A stretch of 64,000 nucleotides of DNA from Thermodesulfobacteriota bacterium (GTDB lineage Bacteria; Desulfobacterota_D; UBA1144; Nemesobacterales; Mycalebacteriaceae), in the NCBI GenBank assembly GCA_965198945.1, contig CBDAQI010000012.1, positions 42,910 to 106,909 of the forward strand, read 5' to 3'. Position 1 is the stretch's first letter. Each line of letters starts with the position of its first letter. Both the position numbers and the translations under genes were made by a program. Under the pieces are notes generated by a model. The model worked only from the letters and a program-made list of their open reading frames with translations, had not been told where the DNA came from and ran no database searches. This document shows, one piece after another, positions 17,637 through 61,527 of the stretch.

Positions 17637-18364
17637 TATTCAGCCTTGAGATGCTCCACTCCCTGAGCTCCTGAAACCAGGATGTCGGTCGTGGTTGTGA
17701 GAAAAAGACCGTGCTCAACAATTCCCGACCTCCACACCAGAGATTCGGCGATGATTTTCAAGTCGTAGATGGGCCCGAAATCACAGTCCAGTATGTAGTT
17801 TTTCTCATCCGTTTTGAAGATTCCGCCGTTTTCATCTTTTCTGAGTTCCATTGAGGCGGCGCCCAGAGAGGAGATAAACCTCCGCGCCGGTTTTACCGCA
17901 AAAGGTATTACTTCAACTGGAAGACGGCAGCGTGTTCCCAGTTTTTCCGACAATTTGCTTTGGTCAACAACTATTATGTTTCTTGAACTTTCCTGCGCCA
18001 CAACTTTTTCGCGCAGCATCGCCCCCCCCCCCCCTTTTATGACATTGAGTTTGCGGTCAACCTCGTCCGCCCCGTCTATTGTTATGTCTATGGCCTTGTC
18101 CCGGGTGAACTCGCTGTCTATTTTAAGGCCGAGAGATTTTGCGTATTTTTCAGTCTTAATTGAGCTCGGCACACAGGCTATGTTTTCAATCAGCTCCGCG
18201 CGGAACTTTTCGGCAAGATATTCAATCGCAAAGGTGGCGGCTTTGCCCGTGCCCAAACCCACCACCATGTCCGAGCAGACAAAATCAACGGCCATTGAAG
18301 CCGATCTTTTTATTGCCTCGTCCGGAACCTCCCGCCTCGGAGGTTTGCCTTTGTAAATACCCAT
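17636..18364 (-). CDS. rpiA: Ribose-5-phosphate isomerase A
   Basis: MVVGLGTGKAATFAIEYL and the conserved KGGGGAMLREK motif. The ORF extends to 18412, but the likely start is the Met at 18364. Confidence 0.88.
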   Translation of the reverse strand: MGIYKGKPPRREVPDEAIKRSASMAVDFVCSDMVVGLGTGKAATFAIEYLAEKFRAELIENIACVPSSIKTEKYAKSLGLKIDSEFTRDKAIDITIDGADEVDRKLNVIKGGGGAMLREKVVAQESSRNIIVVDQSKLSEKLGTRCRLPVEVIPFAVKPARRFISSLGAASMELRKDENGGIFKTDEKNYILDCDFGPIYDLKIIAESLVWRSGIVEHGLFLTTTTDILVSGAQGVEHLKAE

Positions 18365-54761: not shown

Positions 54762-55147
54762 TTTTTAGGAAGGCGGGTTTTGAAGCCAAGAGGGTAATTT
54801 ATTGGATGTTTTTTGCAAATTGGCTTGGTAGGAGGGAGTGAAAATTTTCCGTAGTTAAGTTTTTCTTCCTGAAAAGATTTCAGGTTGTGATTTTTTGCCG
54901 ACAATTACATTATGAATACTGGATTCCCGTTTGCAAGGGAATGACGATGGGGAGTTTTTCCCGCAATTCCCATTTTCCCGTCATTTCCGCAAAAGCATGT
55001 CCCCGTGAAAGCTTGTCCTCATGAAAATGGGGACGGCAATTCAGAAGGCATGGGGAGCAAAACATAGCAAGCGGGACACCAAGTCATATTTCACTCAGTT
55101 CAAACAGAAGTATGAACAGGGGGGTGAGCGGAGCCGAACCCCGAAAC

Positions 55148-55447
55148 GTTGTGAATTGAGGGCAGGTTTCAGTCAGTTACAATTCCTTGAGTTGTCCACA
55201 ATTTTCAACACTAGTTGTGAATTGAGGGCAGGTTTCAGTCAGTTACAATCTGGGAGCAAAGCGAATGGGGGGCGAAACAGTTGTGAATTGAGGGCAGGTT
55301 TCAGTCAGTTACAATTCCTTGAGTTGTCCACAATTTTCAACACTAGTTGTGAATTGAGGGCAGGTTTCAGTCAGTTACAATCTGGGAGCAAAGCGAATGG
55401 GGGGCGAAACAGTTGTGAATTGAGGGCAGGTTTCAGTCAGTTACAAT
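55148..55447 (+). CRISPR. CRISPR array with five 36-bp direct repeats (GTTGTGAATTGAGGGCAGGTTTCAGTCAGTTACAAT) and four 30-bp spacers. Spacer 1 equals spacer 3 and spacer 2 equals spacer 4.
   Basis: Repeats lie at 55148-55183, 55214-55249, 55280-55315, 55346-55381 and 55412-55447 and are identical. The spacers are tccttgagttgtccacaattttcaacacta and ctgggagcaaagcgaatggggggcgaaaca, each present twice. The array is adjacent to cas2. Confidence 0.95.
55157..55183 (+). promoter_or_regulatory. Putative repeat-embedded sigma70-like promoter (TTGAGG, 16 nt, TACAAT). It recurs in every CRISPR repeat.
   Basis: Within the repeat, TTGAGG sits at repeat positions 9-14 and TACAAT at 31-36, 16 nt apart. The arrangement resembles the repeat-internal promoters described for Neisseria type II-C arrays. 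Confidence 0.45.
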
Positions 55448-55497
55448 AGCTATCCCTCAAATGCAATGGTGGCAAGGGGTTATGGCTCTCCGGCAAA

Positions 55498-55827
55498 TCA
55501 AAAAAGAGTGATTTGCTGGGGAGTTGTCTCCGCCTTCTTCCGTTTCTTCCCATAAAACACCTGCATTCGTCCGAACTGTTTGTCCGTAATAATAATCACC
55601 CGCACTTCTCCTTGCGGAGGCAGCCACTCTCTCACTCTTCCCGAATGAACAAATGCATTTTCTTCACTTGCGCAATGTCTGGCATATACGGAGAACTGCA
55701 TCATTATAAATCCGTCCCGCATAATATGCTTTCTAAATCTTGCGTAGTCTTTCCGTGCCTTCTTCGTGTCTGTTGGAAGGTCAAACATCACTATTACCCA
55801 CATAGTTCTGTATCCTCCGAAAGCCAT
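55498..55827 (-). CDS. cas2: CRISPR-associated endoribonuclease Cas2 (type II)
   Basis: VIVMFDLPTDTKKARKDYARFRKHIMRDGFIMMQFSVYARH parallels S. pyogenes Cas2 ([39 protein letters not shown]). Confidence 0.92.
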   Translation of the reverse strand: MAFGGYRTMWVIVMFDLPTDTKKARKDYARFRKHIMRDGFIMMQFSVYARHCASEENAFVHSGRVREWLPPQGEVRVIIITDKQFGRMQVFYGKKRKKAETTPQQITLF

Positions 55828-55829
55828 TT

Positions 55830-56738
55830 CTAAACCTCAATTCTCATTTGTCTGTTTTCAATCAGTTCCGGTATTTTCAAACACTCAACCCCTTCTGAAA
55901 AAGCTTTCTTAAGGCTCGCCGCCATATGCTGGTTTGCCACCATCATCGGCAGTTTCTTTCCTTCAAACAGAACATCTTCTGAAAGAAGAGACAGCAATGA
56001 CATTTTTGTTGTAGTATCAATCTCATTTCTCCCATGCTCGTTCAGTTCATAAACACGTCTGTCAACAAGAGGACGCAACGGTTCAATAAGGTCGTCCGCA
56101 AGGCACATCGGGTTATATTGGTTGTGGTGATGAATCCCGAGCGCCGGATGAAGCCCCGTTCCGCACAAAGCACGGGCGACGGATGCTCTGACGATGCTGT
56201 ATCCGTAGTTGAGTAGAGAGTTGATTCCTTCTTCTTTGTAATTTCTGGAAAACTGTTTTCCAAACAGTTTTGACCAGTATACCCTCGCCGCCTGCGCCTC
56301 AATATTTCTCGTGTCACCGCTTAAGACTCTTTTTTTGAATCCGGGAAGAGGGGAGGGGTCTTTTTTGAAAAAAAGCAGTGTCCGAATCTGTGCTTCTGTT
56401 TTGGCAATTATGACTTTCTGCCAGAGTCGTTTTTTTAGAGGTTTTTTGACGCCCGTCTGTAAATTGAGGACTTTGCTGTGGGTTGAATTGCCGGAAAGGG
56501 GTAGCAAAACGGAAACCGGAAGATGGCTCCGGTCACAAAAAACTATTATGCAGTTGTTTTTCTGACATTCGGCTATGAGGCTCTGAGAGATTGAAATTGC
56601 GGGATTGGCAAGTATGAGAATTCCCATGTCTTCTACGGGAATACTGCTTTCTTTTTCACCGTCTTTTTTGATAATCATCTGATAATCTTTCAGATGAAGA
56701 TATGCAGGGTTGCTGACTTCAGTGATTCGCTTGATCAT
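55830..56738 (-). CDS. cas1: CRISPR-associated endonuclease Cas1 (type II)
   Basis: 302 aa. ...VYWSKLFGKQFSRNYKE...NYGYSIVRASVARAL...HHHNQYNPMCLADDLIEPLRPLVD matches the type II Cas1 catalytic core. Confidence 0.92.
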   Translation of the reverse strand: MIKRITEVSNPAYLHLKDYQMIIKKDGEKESSIPVEDMGILILANPAISISQSLIAECQKNNCIIVFCDRSHLPVSVLLPLSGNSTHSKVLNLQTGVKKPLKKRLWQKVIIAKTEAQIRTLLFFKKDPSPLPGFKKRVLSGDTRNIEAQAARVYWSKLFGKQFSRNYKEEGINSLLNYGYSIVRASVARALCGTGLHPALGIHHHNQYNPMCLADDLIEPLRPLVDRRVYELNEHGRNEIDTTTKMSLLSLLSEDVLFEGKKLPMMVANQHMAASLKKAFSEGVECLKIPELIENRQMRIEV

Positions 56739-56744
56739 TATGGA

Positions 56745-59700
56745 CTAAATTGTGTTTGTAAGGCTAAAACCTAAAGAGTTAATGGACTCTTTTTGCAATT
56801 TGTATTTAGTCATTAGGATGGAAATTGTCCTGCTTAGTTTTTCTTCATTATTATCGAGCGTGGCGGCGGAGTGAAGTCTTAGCCATAGTATTTCTCCTTC
56901 TCTTTGGAATTTTTGCACTCTGTAAAATCTTCTTTCTCCTTTTTCTTCTACACTTACCGTATCATTTATGCACAAGCTCATAATAAATTTCCAGTCTTCT
57001 CCATGGTCAGTTTTAACAATCGGTTCTCTTGTAATTCTTACTTTTTTTTGCGGCTTCCATTGTGGTTACAAAAACACCTTTGGATCTGTTTGTTTTTTTA
57101 TTCTTGATTATTTCTACATGGTGGCTGTTTCCATAAATCATTACACTTAATATTTTGTTACTGTTTTTCTTGGGTTTAAGCCAGTAATTTTTTTCACTAA
57201 ACTCATTAGTTACCCAAACTTTTGCCCGTCTGACAATATCTCCGGTTTTTGGATGCTTAAAAGCTTCTTCTTGCAGTTTTTTTTGAGCGCTTTTTAAGCC
57301 TCCTCTCATATTTACATATTGTTCAAATCCTTCTCTGATTGCCGGACATACTATATTTCTCAAATTTTTGTCCGTCATACCAGTCAGATTTTTGCTAACG
57401 ACGATTCTCTTTTTACCATTGTCTTCTTTTATTCCATATGCGGTATCTTCATGGAATGCTCCCGTCAGTTTTCTATTTGTCGCGTGAGAGACAATCATTT
57501 TATTTGTCGCGCTTTCCAACTCATTCCTAAGGTTTTCAAGCACCTGCGGTATTTCCAATCCCGATTCTGGAGATATGGAATCATCATCCGCTTTTGAAGC
57601 GAGATGTACCACCTTTTGATATAGGCTTCTGTTTGTAAGGGCAATGACCGTTGCGTCAATCGCGTGATGCCTATGGTCGTTACGGTTTTTCTCTCCCGTA
57701 TCTCCAAGGATGTTGTTCAGTCCCCATTGTCTTCGGAGCCAGCTTGTTATTCCGCCTTTGGTGAAAGTTACATCACAGCCGAGTGTTCTAATGTAATTTC
57801 CCGTTTCTTTTGCGATATAGCGGGCGTCTGATAACTGGCTGTTGATGAAATCTTCAATTCCATCCAACTTTTTTGTCAGAATTTTTCTGCGTTTTGCTTC
57901 GGGATAATTCTTGAGTTTTGCTATGGCTTCAATATTTTCCCATTGCTCTGTATTACCAAATGCTTCCCATGGTGTTCTGTTGCCTTTCTTCCTATTTTCC
58001 TCCGCAAGACAGACCGTCTTGTTCATATAGTAATTATCAAGACTCCTGCTGTATGGGAGTATGTGGTCTATTTCAACATCAGCAGACCAGAGTTGTGTCA
58101 GTCCTATAGGTTTCCCACTGTATAAACATTTACCTTCATTTTCTTTCCAGAGTCTGTATTTCTGTTTGTCCTGATGGCTTATGTATGTTTTCAACTGCAG
58201 GCCGGGTTCCTGCTCTTTTATGCTGTTGTATTTTTCTTCCGCTTCTTCATTTTCTTCTGTGTTTTTCTTTTGTCTTTCCAGTGCTTTTCTGTATTTCTCC
58301 GTATTCATTTCCAAATCACGAGACATTTCTATTCGTATCGCGGTTGGTTTTCCATATTCTTTGATAATTGCATTTACGACACGGCGAACTTCATATAACG
58401 CCTTTGTAACAATGGGGTTTGGTATAAAGGGAATTTCTCCAAGAGTTTCTTTGTTTCCGGTTTCCGGCGTTGTAATATCTTCGTAACCGGCAATTTGAAC
58501 CGCTCCTTTTTCTTCTTCTATGTCACTTTCTCGGCTGTAAACCCTGCCTTGCTTAAGGTGAGGCAGAATTTTGTTTATTGCTTTCAGGGACAGATTTCCG
58601 TGTCCCTTTTCCAATTCAAGAACCGCAAGTTTTGTTGCTTTTTCCGAGTCAATATCCGGGTAGTTTTGAAGACGTTTTTTCAGTCCCTTTTTGGATTCGT
58701 ATGAAATCAGATCTTCCACAAGCTGTTTTTGTTTTTTCTCATCAAAGGAGTCCCACAAGTCTCCAATTATTTCTCTGATTCCACAGGCGGTTTTGTTTCC
58801 CTGAATGCCTTTTCTGCTTTTTCCTTCAACTTTGTACAAATTGAACTTTGTTTTCTTATTCAGGTTGAGGATTTCTTTTCCTCTGATCTTTGCCCATGTC
58901 AGATTTCTGTTTTTTTTCAAGTGCTTCGGCAATCAGTTTTTTCTGATCTGGCGAGGGTTTTGCATCTTTTTCTCCCGTTTCAGTGTCATCCCAACTTAAA
59001 TTGTTTATGTCCTGCCAGTAACGGAATTGCTGAAACTCAAGTCGTCCCATATCTACTCTTCTCTTTTTTGGTTCAAGAGAGCAGTTTCCTATGGTTTTCT
59101 TGTCCCAGGTTACGGGACGTTGGTGAAAGATAATTTTCTCAATTGCGCTTCTTACATCTTCAGTGTAAATCTTCGGGTTTAGTTCGGACTGTTTACGGAA
59201 GATTTTTTCAAACTCTTCCTGATACATTCTGCGGTCTGTTCTGAGGTCATGAAGTTCTCCTCTGTTGCGTTTTCGGGGCAGGGTTGCAAGATACTCACCG
59301 AGAGTCCTTTTCCCATTTTCGCTTATCTTCTCTCGGAGCTTTTTAATATCTTCTTTGAATTTGCCTTCATCTTTGTCGGTTTCCGCGGCTTCGTCTTCAA
59401 TTTCAAGGATTTCCCGCGCTTCCAAATCTTCACGCAAGTTTCCAAATCCCGTTTTGCGGTTGCTTAAAAATCCCCGTCGTGTTCCCAGATGCATTATTGC
59501 GCGTCCAAACTCATGTGGGGTCAAAATATCATCTAATCCTTTCGCTCTTATCTGATATGGATCTCCAAGCTTATTAAATTCCGATTCCAGGTTTGGCTCG
59601 TCTTTGAGCGTCTCCGGCAGAAATCCCCTGCTTATAAGGTAGTTGCGAAGACGCAATTTACGTCTGTGCCGCCGTTCAATGACACGCCTTAAAAGACGTT

Positions 59701-59884
59701 TTGCTCTGCGGTGTTGGTTTTTCGGAGTGGGTGTTTTGTCTTCAACGGAGCGTATGAATATACGGCTTCCACAATCAATAAAATTTTTCGGTTTGCCTTG
59801 TTCTTCCTCAATGACGCTCCAGCCGATTGAGTTTGTGCCCATATCAAGACCAATTGCATATTCAGATAGTTTTGTCTTTTTCAT
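56745..59884 (-). CDS. cas9: Cas9 (compact, type II-C-like, about 1046 aa). Its reading frame is split into three ORFs by two single-base frameshifts in A8/T8 homopolymers, at about 58910-58917 and 57042-57049.
   Basis: N-terminal RuvC-I motif YAIGLDMGTNSIGWSVIEE in ORF 58856..59884. HNH motif (DHILPYSRSLDNYYMNKTVCLAEENRKKGNRTPWEAF) and RuvC-III in ORF 57013..58932. The C-terminal PI-like tail is ORF 56745..56981 (...LWLRLHSAATLDNNEEKL...). Removing one A from each A8 run joins the three frames seamlessly. Confidence 0.9.
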
Positions 59885-59934
59885 TTTCTCATCCCTTGAC
59901 AGAATTTTTTCTGTAGTATAGTAATATTAGTATA

Positions 59935-60053
59935 TTATAATTGACTGAAACCTGTCCAAGCATTTTTTCTATTCATAACAAGAAACTAATGTTTCGCAGG
60001 ATAACCAGGGTAAACCTAATCGCCTCTCGCCTTAGGGCAGGGGCGATTTTTTT
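59935..60053 (+). ncRNA. Putative tracrRNA, encoded divergently from cas9
   Basis: An anti-repeat at 59943-59985 (TGACTGAAACCTGTCC...ATTCATAACAAG) is complementary to the 5' half of the CRISPR repeat, with a central bulge. A TATAAT at 59936-59941 overlaps its start. A downstream hairpin TCGCC-N10-GGCGA plus a T7 run (60047-60053) looks like an intrinsic terminator. Confidence 0.7.
60021..60053 (+). terminator. Rho-independent terminator of the putative tracrRNA
   Basis: GC-rich hairpin (ctcgcc ttagggcagg ggcga) followed by ttttttt. Confidence 0.6.
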
Positions 60054-60093
60054 ATCTTCTTTCAAGTATGTAAACTCACTTCCGTAGCAAAAA

Positions 60094-61527
60094 ATGAAAA
60101 TCCCTCTCCAATTTCAATCCGATTTCCCCCCTGCGGGCGAGCTTGAAGTCACAACCCCTTTTAACGGTCAAGTTATCGCAACTGTGGAAACGGCCGGGGA
60201 AAAACATCTGGACGGTCTTTTTGAAACCGCAAAAAAACTTTATGAAAACCGTGAGGGCTGGCTTACCGTTCACCAAAGGGCGCAAATTCTGGAACGGGCT
60301 TCTTCAATAATCACCGAACGCATGGACGATTTGATAATTCAGGCGGCGCGTGAGGGTGGAAAACCCTATAACGATTCAAAAGTGGAAATTTACAGAGCGG
60401 CGGACAGCGCAAAAATCGCCGCGGAAACAATTCGCACCGAAGCGGGAAATGTTATTCCGATGGGCGGTGATCTTTACAGCGCGAACAGAGCGGCTTTTAC
60501 ACAAAAAGAGCCGATTGGGGTTGTCGTTGCGGTCAGCGCTTTTAATCATCCGCTTAACCTTATAGTTCATCAGGCGGGCGCCGCAATTGCCGCCGGATGT
60601 CCGGTTATCATCAAGCCCGCGAGTGAAACGCCGCTTTCATGCATATCCTTCAAAAACATACTCGTTGAAGCGGGGCTGCCGCCCGACTGGTGTCAGGTTG
60701 TTGTTACCGATTCAAACGAAACGGCTCAACTGCTCGCAACCGACAGGAGGACGGCGTTTTTCAGTTTTATAGGAAGCTCGCGGGTCGGCTGGATGCTGCG
60801 CTCCAAACTCGCTCCGGGAACACGCTGCGCCCTTGAACACGGCGGAGTGGCGCCGGCGCTTGTGTATGAAGACTCGGATATTGAACGCACCGCGTCTCTG
60901 CTTGCCAAAGGAGGCTTCTATCACGCGGGGCAGGTTTGCGTTTCCACCCAGCGCGTCTATGTGCAAAAAAATATCGCACCGAACTTTCTCTCATTTTTCC
61001 GCAGCGAAGCGGAAAGTCTTAAAGTCGGAGACCCCGCGCTTGAATCAACTCAAGTGGGGCCGCTTATCCGCCCGTCGGAAGTCAGGCGCGTTCACGAGTG
61101 GGTTTGTGAGGCCGTCAGCGAGGGAGCTGAACTTGTCTGCGGCGGAAACATTCTGTTTGACAGATGTTACGAACCGACCATTTTGCTCAACCCTCCGGAT
61201 GCCGTTCGCGCCAGCCGTGAGGAAATTTTCGGTCCCGTGGTCTGCGTTTATGAGGTTGACGACATGGAAGATGCGATTGCGCGCGCGAACGGTCTTGGCA
61301 TGGCGTTTCAATCTTCGGTTTTTACAAAAAATCTTGACACCGCTCTTGCCGCCGTGAAAAAATTGAGCGCTTCAGGCGTTATGGTGAATGATCACACCGC
61401 GTTCCGCATAGACGGAATGCCCTTCGGAGGGCTGAAGCAGTCCGGCCTCGGAACCGGCGGCATTCCGCACACAATCAGAGATATGAGCATGGAGAAAATG
61501 GTTGTTTTCCGCTCAGACGCGATTTAG
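60094..61527 (+). CDS. NAD(P)-dependent aldehyde dehydrogenase family protein
   Basis: 477 aa with the ALDH family pattern (catalytic region ...EHGGVAPALV..., GQVCVSTQRVYV with the catalytic Cys, and a glycine motif). Confidence 0.85.
   Translation: MKIPLQFQSDFPPAGELEVTTPFNGQVIATVETAGEKHLDGLFETAKKLYENREGWLTVHQRAQILERASSIITERMDDLIIQAAREGGKPYNDSKVEIYRAADSAKIAAETIRTEAGNVIPMGGDLYSANRAAFTQKEPIGVVVAVSAFNHPLNLIVHQAGAAIAAGCPVIIKPASETPLSCISFKNILVEAGLPPDWCQVVVTDSNETAQLLATDRRTAFFSFIGSSRVGWMLRSKLAPGTRCALEHGGVAPALVYEDSDIERTASLLAKGGFYHAGQVCVSTQRVYVQKNIAPNFLSFFRSEAESLKVGDPALESTQVGPLIRPSEVRRVHEWVCEAVSEGAELVCGGNILFDRCYEPTILLNPPDAVRASREEIFGPVVCVYEVDDMEDAIARANGLGMAFQSSVFTKNLDTALAAVKKLSASGVMVNDHTAFRIDGMPFGGLKQSGLGTGGIPHTIRDMSMEKMVVFRSDAI

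What the first reader, a model, noticed from the sequence alone, without database searches (positions are those of the whole stretch)
55148..55447. Each CRISPR repeat contains a -35/-10-like pair, suggesting repeat-embedded crRNA promoters
TTGAGG at repeat positions 9-14, a 16-nt spacer and TACAAT at positions 31-36 recur in every repeat. The repeat (GTTGT…TACAAT) is strikingly similar in its termini to the Neisseria meningitidis type II-C repeat (GTTGTAGC…TGCTACAAT), where each repeat drives transcription of the downstream spacer independently of RNase III. Here, transcription would run on the + strand toward cas2, opposite to the cas operon.
Basis: partly seen in the sequence, partly recalled or inferred. 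Interest (0 to 1): 0.55.

Follow-up and report, generated by a model that had tools for sequence, protein, structure and literature searches.

The report
Promoter motif inside type II-C CRISPR repeats
Each repeat of this small Cas9-type CRISPR array ends in a promoter-like −10 box, the hallmark already described for type II-C systems such as Neisseria and Campylobacter, so this is an ordinary new example in an uncultured (Dadabacteria-like) bacterium.

Summary
Five identical 36-nt repeats (55148-55447, + strand) each carry TTGAGG-N16-TACAAT, with TACAAT as the last six bases.

[quoted passage not shown] The closest Cas9 relatives are Candidatus Dadabacteria.

Among 58 distinct repeats from related loci, the terminal hexamer is always TAnAnT and G sits at −14 in 49. 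The tracrRNA copy of the same sequence loses the motif in about a third of loci. The flank upstream of the array is not conserved and has no good promoter. This fits a repeat-embedded −10 promoter.

The −35-like TTGAGG is not conserved. Nine of the 11 closest repeats have TAGCGG, TAGAGG, TTAAGG or CTGAGG. There is also no TGn extension.

The gnTAnaaT motif at the 3' end of II-C repeats has already been published (Pearson 2015; Zhang 2013; Dugar 2013), so this is a new member of a known kind.

Activity here is untested. cas9 carries two +1 frameshifts in A-runs, and the array holds only two spacers, duplicated.

The parts
55148..55447 (+). CRISPR array: 5 repeats of 36 nt and 4 spacers of 30 nt, of which only 2 are distinct (order S1-S2-S1-S2)
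55148..55183 (+). Repeat 1. -35-like TTGAGG at 55156-55161; -10 TACAAT at 55178-55183. Predicted start about 55189-55190 (spacer nt 6-7, G/A).
   Evidence: The start position is inferred from the Nme (6th nt, PMC12477760) and Cje (5th nt, PMC3656092) precedents.
55214..55249 (+). Repeat 2. TTGAGG at 55222-55227; TACAAT at 55244-55249. Predicted start about 55255-55256 (A/G).
55280..55315 (+). Repeat 3. TTGAGG at 55288-55293; TACAAT at 55310-55315.
55346..55381 (+). Repeat 4. TTGAGG at 55354-55359; TACAAT at 55376-55381.
55412..55447 (+). Repeat 5, next to the leader. TTGAGG at 55420-55425; TACAAT at 55442-55447. A transcript from here would run into the leader and antisense to cas2, and would yield no crRNA.
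   Evidence: analogy with the R26 allele of N. meningitidis (PMC12477760)
55448..55497 (+). Conserved leader between the last repeat and the cas2 stop codon. It is the probable spacer-integration end and lies downstream of the array in the crRNA direction.
   Evidence: Conserved in L081, L083, L001, L084 and L002, whereas the cas-distal flank is not. Leader position as in Nme.
55498..55827 (-). cas2 (109 aa)
   Evidence: Pfam CRISPR_Cas2, E 3e-18
55830..56738 (-). cas1 (302 aa)
   Evidence: Pfam Cas_Cas1, E 1e-29
56745..59884 (-). cas9 (about 1045 aa if repaired), split into three frames by +1 insertions in A-runs at 58910-58917 and 57042-57049
   Evidence: Pfam HNH_4, RuvC_III and Cas9_a; tblastn with P0002 gives three frames; comparison with relatives
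59929..60053 (+). tracrRNA (5' end approximate). Anti-repeat at 59934-59957 and 59972-59979, around a 14-nt bulge. AA junction. Nexus hairpin at 59982-59995. Second hairpin about 59998-60017. Terminator stem at 60020-60046 and T7 run at 60047-60053.
   Evidence: Duplex with the repeat -41.8 kcal/mol; terminator; alignment of 10 loci with 7 of 18 pairs compensatory
59896..59901 (+). TTGACA, the probable -35 of the tracrRNA promoter, 32 nt upstream of the anti-repeat (candidate -10 elements: TATAGT at 59917-59922 or TAGTAA at 59919-59924)
   Evidence: TGTCAA on the cas9 strand recurs at this place in many related loci; coordinates
59929..59958 (-). Repeat-like 'mirror' of the anti-repeat on the cas9 strand. 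It carries TATAAT (59939-59934) and TGGACA-N18-TATACT (59958..59929), 49 and 44 nt upstream of the cas9 ATG. Candidate cas9 promoter.
   Evidence: Best - strand promoter-like site in 54-64 kb, 10/12

Best explanation
This is the CRISPR array of a type II-C CRISPR-Cas9 locus from a Dadabacteria-like MAG. The last six bases of every repeat (TACAAT, preceded by G at -14) most likely act as a sigma-70-type -10 element. If so, RNA polymerase starts about 5-7 nt into the following spacer and reads on the + strand toward cas2, so each spacer has its own promoter.

The resulting spacer-repeat transcripts pair, through almost the whole repeat, with the tracrRNA encoded on the + strand upstream of cas9. 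They are bound by Cas9. RNase III probably trims them inside the long duplex, but it would not be needed to make the 5' end.

The leader, where new spacers are integrated, lies at the cas2-proximal end. That end is downstream in the crRNA direction, so internal promoters are what allow the newest spacers to be expressed.

The TTGAGG at positions 9-14 may add some -35 contact in this particular genome, but it is a lineage-specific accident of the repeat sequence rather than a conserved part of the element.

Shown: the anatomy, the strand and the conservation pattern. Inferred: promoter activity, start site and RNase III independence.
For: 1. Type II-C layout. cas9, cas1 and cas2 are present with no csn2 or cas4. 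The neighbours are a BT1 transporter and an aldehyde dehydrogenase (the same synteny appears in relatives). The nearest solved Cas9s are 1082-1095-aa II-C-size enzymes.

2. Strand.
- The + strand at 59934-60053 pairs with the + sense repeat at -41.8 kcal/mol, against -30.7 for the opposite sense.
- The pairing region is followed by an AA junction, a nexus hairpin and a terminator with T7.
- 7 of 18 tracrRNA pairs show compensatory changes in 10 loci.
- Across 55 loci, repeat versus anti-repeat differences are wobble-compatible 46 times in this sense and 13 times in the other.
- A conserved TTGACA lies upstream of the tracrRNA.

3. The -10 element.
- 58 of 58 distinct related repeats end in TAnAnT and 49 of 58 have G at -14.
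- The three positions where the repeat's 3' end departs from a perfect inverted copy of its 5' end are G29, T31 and T36, which correspond to -14, -12 and -7.
- The anti-repeat copy, which needs only to pair, keeps TAnAnT in 39/57 loci and loses T36 in 11/55.

4. No alternative promoter.
- There is no match of 9/12 or better on the + strand in the 386 nt upstream of the array.
- That flank is not conserved among close relatives and holds decayed repeats. The cas2-proximal flank is conserved.

5. Precedent.
- Repeat-embedded promoters were demonstrated in N. meningitidis and C. jejuni.
- gnTAnaaT was described for II-C repeats across phyla.
Against: - There is no transcript data for this organism or any close relative.
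- The extended -10 TG of the Neisseria and Campylobacter elements is absent (AGT instead of TGn).
- The -35-like hexamer is not conserved in the nearest relatives, so in most of the clade the element would be a bare -10 with G-14, which may be weak.
- The repeat 3' end is also the leader-proximal end. Its conservation could therefore partly reflect recognition by the Cas1-Cas2 integrase.
- The related loci share ancestry, so the counts are not independent.
- cas9 is frameshifted twice in this assembly.
Confidence: 0.72

Rival explanations
1. The terminal TAnAnT is conserved because the repeat end next to the leader is recognised by the Cas1-Cas2 integrase (or another DNA-level step of adaptation), not because it is a promoter. 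crRNAs would then come from a long precursor processed by RNase III.
For: The conserved leader lies directly next to the TACAAT end of the last repeat. Leader-repeat junction sequences are needed for adaptation in type II-A systems (references cited in PMC12477760). The anti-repeat copy is not an integration substrate, so its looser conservation fits this reading as well.
Against: The invariant positions (T, A, A, T, plus G two bases upstream) are exactly the most conserved positions of a sigma-70 -10 element. No promoter candidate or conserved sequence exists upstream of the array to make a precursor. In Neisseria and Campylobacter the same motif was shown to start transcription. The two functions are not mutually exclusive.
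Confidence: 0.12
2. The -35/-10 resemblance is a chance property of this repeat sequence and has no transcriptional role.
For: The five copies are one event. 0.4-0.8% of window 36-mers score as well. The -35 half is not conserved, and only 10 of 58 related repeats pass the 9/12 rule. Part of TACAAT follows from the terminal inverted symmetry with GTTGTG.
Against: TAnAnT occurs in 58/58 repeats against a background frequency of 0.22% per position. The deviations from terminal symmetry all point toward the -10 consensus. Precedents are published.
Confidence: 0.08
3. The motif is a promoter by descent, but the locus in this genome is decaying and no longer provides immunity. Any crRNAs made would have no working Cas9.
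For: cas9 has two +1 frameshifts, at 58910-58917 and 57042-57049. More than 20 other homopolymers of 8 nt or longer in the window sit in intact frames. The array has only two distinct spacers, present as an exact 132-bp duplication. No protospacer was found.
Against: Both lesions are single extra A's in A7 runs, the typical form of a sequencing or assembly error. Each cas9 segment is otherwise free of stops and 47-79% identical to P0002. cas1, cas2, the tracrRNA, the leader and all five repeats are intact.
Confidence: 0.3
4. The array is transcribed from the - strand, co-directionally with cas9-cas1-cas2 as in type II-A systems, and the + strand motif is irrelevant.
For: No terminator was found between cas2 and the array, so read-through from the cas operon could cross the array.
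Against: A tracrRNA able to pair with - strand crRNA would have to run into cas9 without a terminator, and it pairs less well (-30.7 against -41.8 kcal/mol). The wobble asymmetry is 46 to 13 against this sense. The tracrRNA fold and terminator lie on the + strand, with covariation. II-C arrays are described as convergent with cas.
Confidence: 0.03

Closest known systems
Neisseria meningitidis type II-C CRISPR-Cas9 (Zhang et al. 2013; as summarised in PMC5965381 and PMC12477760)
   Same: The gene set is cas9-cas1-cas2 only, with 36-nt repeats and 30-nt spacers. The repeat starts GTTGT and ends TACAAT (18/36 identical). The array is read antisense to the cas operon, and the leader lies at the end that is downstream in the crRNA direction. 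The -10 sits at the last six bases of each repeat, which predicts starts about 6 nt into the spacer.
   Different: The Neisseria repeat has the extended -10 TGcTACAAT and no -35. Here the sequence is AGTTACAAT, with a non-conserved TTGAGG 16 nt upstream. To my recollection the Neisseria tracrRNA is not in this position; here it lies upstream of cas9 and diverges from it. Cas9 is only distantly related (best solved-structure hits E 1e-67 to 1e-78). There is no transcript evidence here.
Campylobacter jejuni type II-C CRISPR (Dugar et al. 2013, PMC3656092)
   Same: Each repeat ends in a -10 box (GGTAAAAT) and primary crRNA starts were mapped at spacer position 5. It is a minimal three-gene system. 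A strain with a cas9 stop mutation expresses crRNA and tracrRNA only weakly, which is relevant to the frameshifted cas9 here.
   Different: Repeat identity is 16/36. The Campylobacter element has TGG before the -10, and its tracrRNA lies next to the array.
The gnTAnaaT motif of type II-C repeats across 132 genomes (Pearson et al. 2015, PMC4607530)
   Same: The pattern found here in 58 related repeats is the same: G at -14, T-12, A-11 and T-7 at the 3' end of the repeat, with arrays convergent with cas. Type II-A repeats end in C and lack it.
   Different: That survey did not include Dadabacteria or most of the MAG lineages sampled here. The contrast with the anti-repeat copy was made here; I did not check whether that paper made it.
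Streptococcus pyogenes type II-A CRISPR (leader promoter, tracrRNA upstream of cas9 on the opposite strand)
   Same: The tracrRNA is placed upstream of cas9 and diverges from it. The repeat:anti-repeat duplex is suited to RNase III.
   Different: The II-A array is transcribed from one promoter in the leader, co-directionally with cas, and II-A repeats end in C without a -10.

Membership tests
Type II-C CRISPR-Cas | cas9, cas1 and cas2 as the only cas genes (no csn2, no cas4) | tested here: met
   Pfam hits for Cas2, Cas1 and the Cas9 domains. The flanking genes are a BT1 transporter and an aldehyde dehydrogenase. The same layout is seen in L081, L083 and L084.
Type II-C CRISPR-Cas | Cas9 of the compact II-C lineage (about 1000-1100 aa) | tested here: met
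   The repaired length is about 1045 aa and full-length relatives are 1033-1091 aa. The best solved-structure matches are 1082-1095-aa Cas9s. That these are NmeCas9 and GeoCas9 is from my own knowledge of the entries.
Type II-C CRISPR-Cas | tracrRNA with anti-repeat, nexus and intrinsic terminator | tested here: met
   Hybrid energy is -41.8 kcal/mol against a published II-C median of -39.4, and the AA junction matches the one described for II-C (PMC6546382). No Rfam family matched.
Type II-C CRISPR-Cas | Array read antisense (convergent) to the cas operon | tested here: met
   Inferred from the tracrRNA strand, pairing energies and wobble asymmetry. Not measured by RNA data.
Repeat-embedded crRNA promoters (Nme/Cje type) | -10 element (TAnnnT; gnTAnaaT) at the 3' end of every repeat | tested here: met
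   AGTTACAAT in all five repeats. TAnAnT in 58/58 related repeats and G-14 in 49/58.
Repeat-embedded crRNA promoters (Nme/Cje type) | Extended -10 (TGn directly upstream of the hexamer) | tested here: not met
   AGT precedes TACAAT, and TG is present in only 3/58 related repeats.
Repeat-embedded crRNA promoters (Nme/Cje type) | Primary (5'-triphosphate) crRNA ends 5-7 nt into each spacer | not testable with these tools
   Needs dRNA-seq or 5' RACE. Purines are available at spacer positions 6-7 in both spacers.
Repeat-embedded crRNA promoters (Nme/Cje type) | crRNA function independent of RNase III processing | not testable with these tools
   Genetic test only.
Repeat-embedded crRNA promoters (Nme/Cje type) | No external promoter or leader on the side upstream of the array in the crRNA direction | tested here: met
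   No match of 9/12 or better on the + strand in 54762-55147. The cas-distal flank is not conserved among close relatives, while the cas2-proximal leader is. A consensus scan cannot exclude an atypical promoter.
   TTGAGG is present in the window and L002 only. It reads TAGCGG, TAGAGG, TTAAGG or CTGAGG in the 9 other closest repeats, and it is polymorphic within L081. TTG at positions 9-11 occurs in 42/58 repeats family-wide.

The most novel reading that the evidence does not exclude
The tracrRNA anti-repeat is an inverted copy of a repeat, so its opposite strand carries the repeat's promoter motif pointing at cas9. In this window the motif is improved to a consensus TATAAT (59939-59934), 49 nt upstream of the cas9 ATG, and it overlaps the best - strand promoter match of the region (TGGACA-N18-TATACT).

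If this mirror element is the cas9 promoter, then crRNA and cas operon transcription would use the same repeat-derived promoter module. cas9 transcription would also start inside, and antisense to, the tracrRNA gene, which couples the expression of the two.

In many related loci the mirror hexamer lies only 20-31 nt from the cas9 start codon. That leaves no room for another promoter downstream of it.
Probability: 0.22. Interest if true: 0.5.

Novelty: new member of a known kind. Interest (0 to 1): 0.25.

Why it matters
The result extends a known type II-C trait, one promoter per repeat with crRNAs read toward cas2, to an uncultured sponge- and marine-associated lineage (Dadabacteria-like). It also shows that the conserved part is the -10 (G-14, T-12, A-11, T-7) and not a -35/-10 pair.

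In practice it fixes the crRNA and tracrRNA strands and boundaries for this Cas9 clade. That is what anyone would need to design a guide RNA for these roughly 1040-aa Cas9 enzymes.

It does not open a new question. The only non-routine lead is the repeat-derived promoter-like copy in front of cas9.

Tried and rejected
- Rfam search of 54800-60200 at E up to 1 gave no tracrRNA or CRISPR-DR family match.
- Protospacers for the two spacers were not found in the window or in IMG/VR with the 22-nt 3' cores. No PAM-side check of orientation was therefore possible.
- The metagenome scan with the 24-nt 3' part of the repeat returned only the Ca. Mycalebacterium zealandia contig already in hand.
- Exact look-ups of the window's own Cas1 and Cas9 fragment (P0001), and of P0012, found no record. 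The source sample could not be examined for read support or alternative assemblies.
- Zhang et al. 2013 and Mir et al. 2018 are not held in the paper library. Their content is cited through papers that summarise them.
- The - strand tracrRNA/crRNA model was rejected on pairing energy, the lack of a terminator and the wobble asymmetry.
- The idea that the mirror -10 in front of cas9 is conserved family-wide was weakened. It is kept in 39/57 loci, and T36 is its most often lost position.
- A leader-side promoter was searched for with a relaxed threshold. Only an 8/12 site about 235 nt upstream was found.

Full report
**Observation.** The region 55148-55447 holds five identical copies of the 36-nt repeat GTTGTGAATTGAGGGCAGGTTTCAGTCAGTTACAAT, separated by 30-nt spacers. 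TTGAGG lies at repeat positions 9-14, followed by 16 nt, and TACAAT forms positions 31-36. The consensus scan lists all five copies as 9/12 promoter-like sites on the + strand, without a TG extension, and lists none on the − strand of the array. The copies are identical, so this is one independent event. Among all other 36-mers of the window, 0.4% pass the same rule on a given strand, and 0.05% do so with the −10 ending at the last base. By itself it is moderately, not overwhelmingly, unlikely by chance.

**What the locus is.** On the − strand lie cas2 (55827..55498), cas1 (56738..55830) and cas9 (59884..56745). They have Pfam matches to Cas2, Cas1, HNH_4, RuvC_III and Cas9_a. There is no csn2 or cas4. 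The neighbours are a BT1-family transporter and an aldehyde dehydrogenase, and the same synteny is found in the closest relatives. The closest Cas9 proteins (65-72% identity) come from MAGs labelled Candidatus Dadabacteria or Candidatus Mycalebacterium zealandia. The nearest solved structures are II-C-sized Cas9s. This is a type II-C system.

**Strand of the crRNA.** Directly upstream of cas9, on the + strand, lies a sequence complementary to almost the whole repeat: 59934-59957 and 59972-59979, around a 14-nt bulge. It is followed by AA, a small hairpin (59982-59995), a second hairpin, and a G+C-rich terminator stem with seven T's (60020-60053). Several lines of evidence fix the strand.
- The duplex with the + sense repeat is −41.8 kcal/mol. 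The alternative, with both RNAs from the − strand, gives −30.7 kcal/mol, has no terminator and runs into cas9.
- The published II-C median hybrid energy (−39.4 kcal/mol) and the A/AA junction fit this model (PMC6546382).
- In an alignment of the same region from ten loci, 7 of 18 predicted pairs show compensatory changes.
- A TTGACA lies 32 nt upstream of the anti-repeat and recurs at that position in many related loci.
- Across 55 loci, the differences between repeat and anti-repeat are of the kind that leaves a G·U wobble 46 times if the crRNA has the GTTG… sense, and 13 times for the opposite sense.

This is also the orientation described for II-C arrays in general.

**Comparative test of the promoter motif.** I collected 80 loci with related Cas9 genes from species-representative genomes, plus eight closer ones through exact protein look-ups. 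From these I extracted 58 distinct 36-nt repeats in crRNA sense.
- The last hexamer is TAnAnT in 58 of 58, against a background frequency of 0.22% per position in the window.
- G is at position 29 (−14) in 49 of 58.
- The two variable positions of the hexamer change freely.
- The repeat termini are roughly inverted copies of each other. The three places where the 3' end departs from a perfect inverted copy of GTTGTGAA are G29, T31 and T36, which correspond to −14, −12 and −7.

The anti-repeat offers an internal control, because it must pair with the repeat but is neither a crRNA promoter nor an integration substrate. Its repeat-sense strand keeps TAnAnT in only 39 of 57 loci and has lost T36 in 11 of 55. 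The loci are related, so these counts are not independent. Even so, the contrast shows a constraint on the array repeats that base pairing does not explain.

**The −35 half is not conserved.** Within the window's own clade, TTGAGG is found only in the window and L002. The other nine repeats have TAGCGG, TAGAGG, TTAAGG or CTGAGG. In L081 the oldest repeat has TTGAGG and the others have TTAAGG. Family-wide, TTG at positions 9-11 occurs in 42 of 58 repeats, and only 10 of 58 pass the full 9/12 rule. The TGn extension typical of Neisseria and Campylobacter is present in 3 of 58 and absent here.

**Flanks.** The 50 nt between the last repeat and the cas2 stop codon (55448-55497) are conserved among the close relatives. 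The cas-distal flank is not conserved, and in L002 and L086 it contains decayed repeats. The leader, the end where spacers are added, is therefore downstream of the array in the crRNA direction, as in N. meningitidis (PMC12477760). On the + strand between the neighbouring gene and the first repeat there is no promoter-like site of 9/12 or better; the best is 8/12, about 235 nt away. A single external promoter for a long precursor thus has neither a candidate sequence nor a conserved flank. This indirectly supports internal promoters.

**Comparison with what is known.** Repeat-embedded promoters were demonstrated in N. meningitidis, where starts map at the 6th spacer nucleotide. They were also demonstrated in C. 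jejuni, where the repeat ends GGTAAAAT and starts map at position 5. They are treated as a general II-C trait in later work. Pearson et al. 2015 described gnTAnaaT at the 3' end of II-C repeats in a survey of 132 genomes. They contrasted it with II-A repeats, which end in C, and noted the convergent orientation. The pattern I find is the same motif. The finding is therefore a new member of a known kind in a lineage not covered by those studies. It differs from the model systems in lacking the TG extension and in placing the tracrRNA upstream of cas9.

**Best explanation and rivals.** The most likely reading (about 0.7) has three parts.
- The terminal G-n-TACAAT acts as a −10 element that starts a transcript about 5-7 nt into each spacer.
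- These transcripts pair with the tracrRNA and are loaded into Cas9.
- TTGAGG is at most an accessory contact in this genome.

Four rivals remain.
- The conservation reflects integrase recognition of the leader-proximal repeat end (0.12; not exclusive of the promoter reading).
- The resemblance is chance (0.08).
- The locus is decaying, so the motif is irrelevant here (0.3; compatible with the motif being a promoter by descent).
- Transcription is from the − strand (0.03).

None of these can be settled without RNA 5'-end mapping or reporter assays.

**State of the locus.** cas9 is read in three frames. The two shifts coincide with A8 runs at 58910-58917 and 57042-57049, and removing one A from each restores a sequence that aligns with relatives. 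More than twenty other homopolymers of 8 nt or longer in the window lie in intact frames. The concentration in cas9 is therefore notable, but single-base homopolymer errors cannot be excluded. The array holds only two distinct spacers, in the order S1-S2-S1-S2, an exact 132-bp duplication. No targets were found.

**A lead outside the finding.** The cas9-sense strand of the anti-repeat is a repeat-like sequence that ends in TATAAT (59939-59934), 49 nt before the cas9 ATG. It overlaps the best − strand promoter match of the region (TGGACA-N18-TATACT, 10/12). In many related loci the equivalent hexamer lies 20-31 nt from the cas9 start codon. The cas operon might therefore be driven by a repeat-derived promoter that lies antisense within the tracrRNA gene. 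The mirror hexamer is not well conserved, however, so I give this a probability of about 0.2.

**Verdict.** The direction and the −10 part of the interpretation are well supported by comparative evidence and precedent, while the −35 part is not. The phenomenon is already described for type II-C systems, so interest is low to moderate (0.25).

Noticed in passing
window 56745-59884 (- strand); frameshift sites 58910-58917 and 57042-57049: cas9 is split into three frames by two +1 insertions, each an extra A in an A7 run. Other homopolymers of 8 nt or longer in the window lie in intact frames. Relatives L002 and L086 also show a broken 3' part of cas9. Whether this is real inactivation, phase variation or sequencing error is unresolved.
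   Followed up: partly
window 55148-55411: The array contains only two distinct spacers, in the order S1-S2-S1-S2. This is an exact 132-bp tandem duplication of two repeat-spacer units (55148-55279 and 55280-55411). It probably arose by recombination between repeats, or it is an assembly artefact.
   Followed up: partly
window 59929-59958 (- strand): A repeat-like mirror of the tracrRNA anti-repeat carries TATAAT and TGGACA-N18-TATACT, 44-49 nt upstream of the cas9 ATG. It is a possible repeat-derived cas9 promoter lying antisense within the tracrRNA gene. The mirror hexamer is kept in 39/57 related loci and lies 20-31 nt from the cas9 start in many of them.
   Followed up: partly
window 55448-55497: A roughly 50-nt non-coding stretch between the last repeat and the cas2 stop codon is conserved among six close relatives (…CCTCAA…TGGCAAGGGGTT…). 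It is the probable leader for spacer integration and lies at the end that is downstream in the crRNA direction. The cas-distal flank is not conserved.
   Followed up: yes
window 59896-59901 (+ strand) and the equivalent positions in many loci (for example L002, L040-L042, L064, L068, L077, L081, L083, L084): A consensus TTGACA lies about 30-32 nt upstream of the anti-repeat, overlapping the cas9 5' UTR on the other strand. In a gammaproteobacterial group of loci, a TATAAT on the tracrRNA strand sits in the 27-31-nt gap between the anti-repeat and the cas9 ATG. The tracrRNA and cas9 promoters must therefore overlap back to back.
   Followed up: partly
L081 (= L089) array; L081 8478-8703: In the Ca. 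Mycalebacterium zealandia array the oldest (cas-distal) repeat has TTGAGG at positions 9-14, and the three newer repeats have TTAAGG. The -35-like hexamer is thus polymorphic within one array.
   Followed up: yes
window 18022-18034: A run of 13 C's lies inside long open frames on both strands. Not examined.
   Followed up: no
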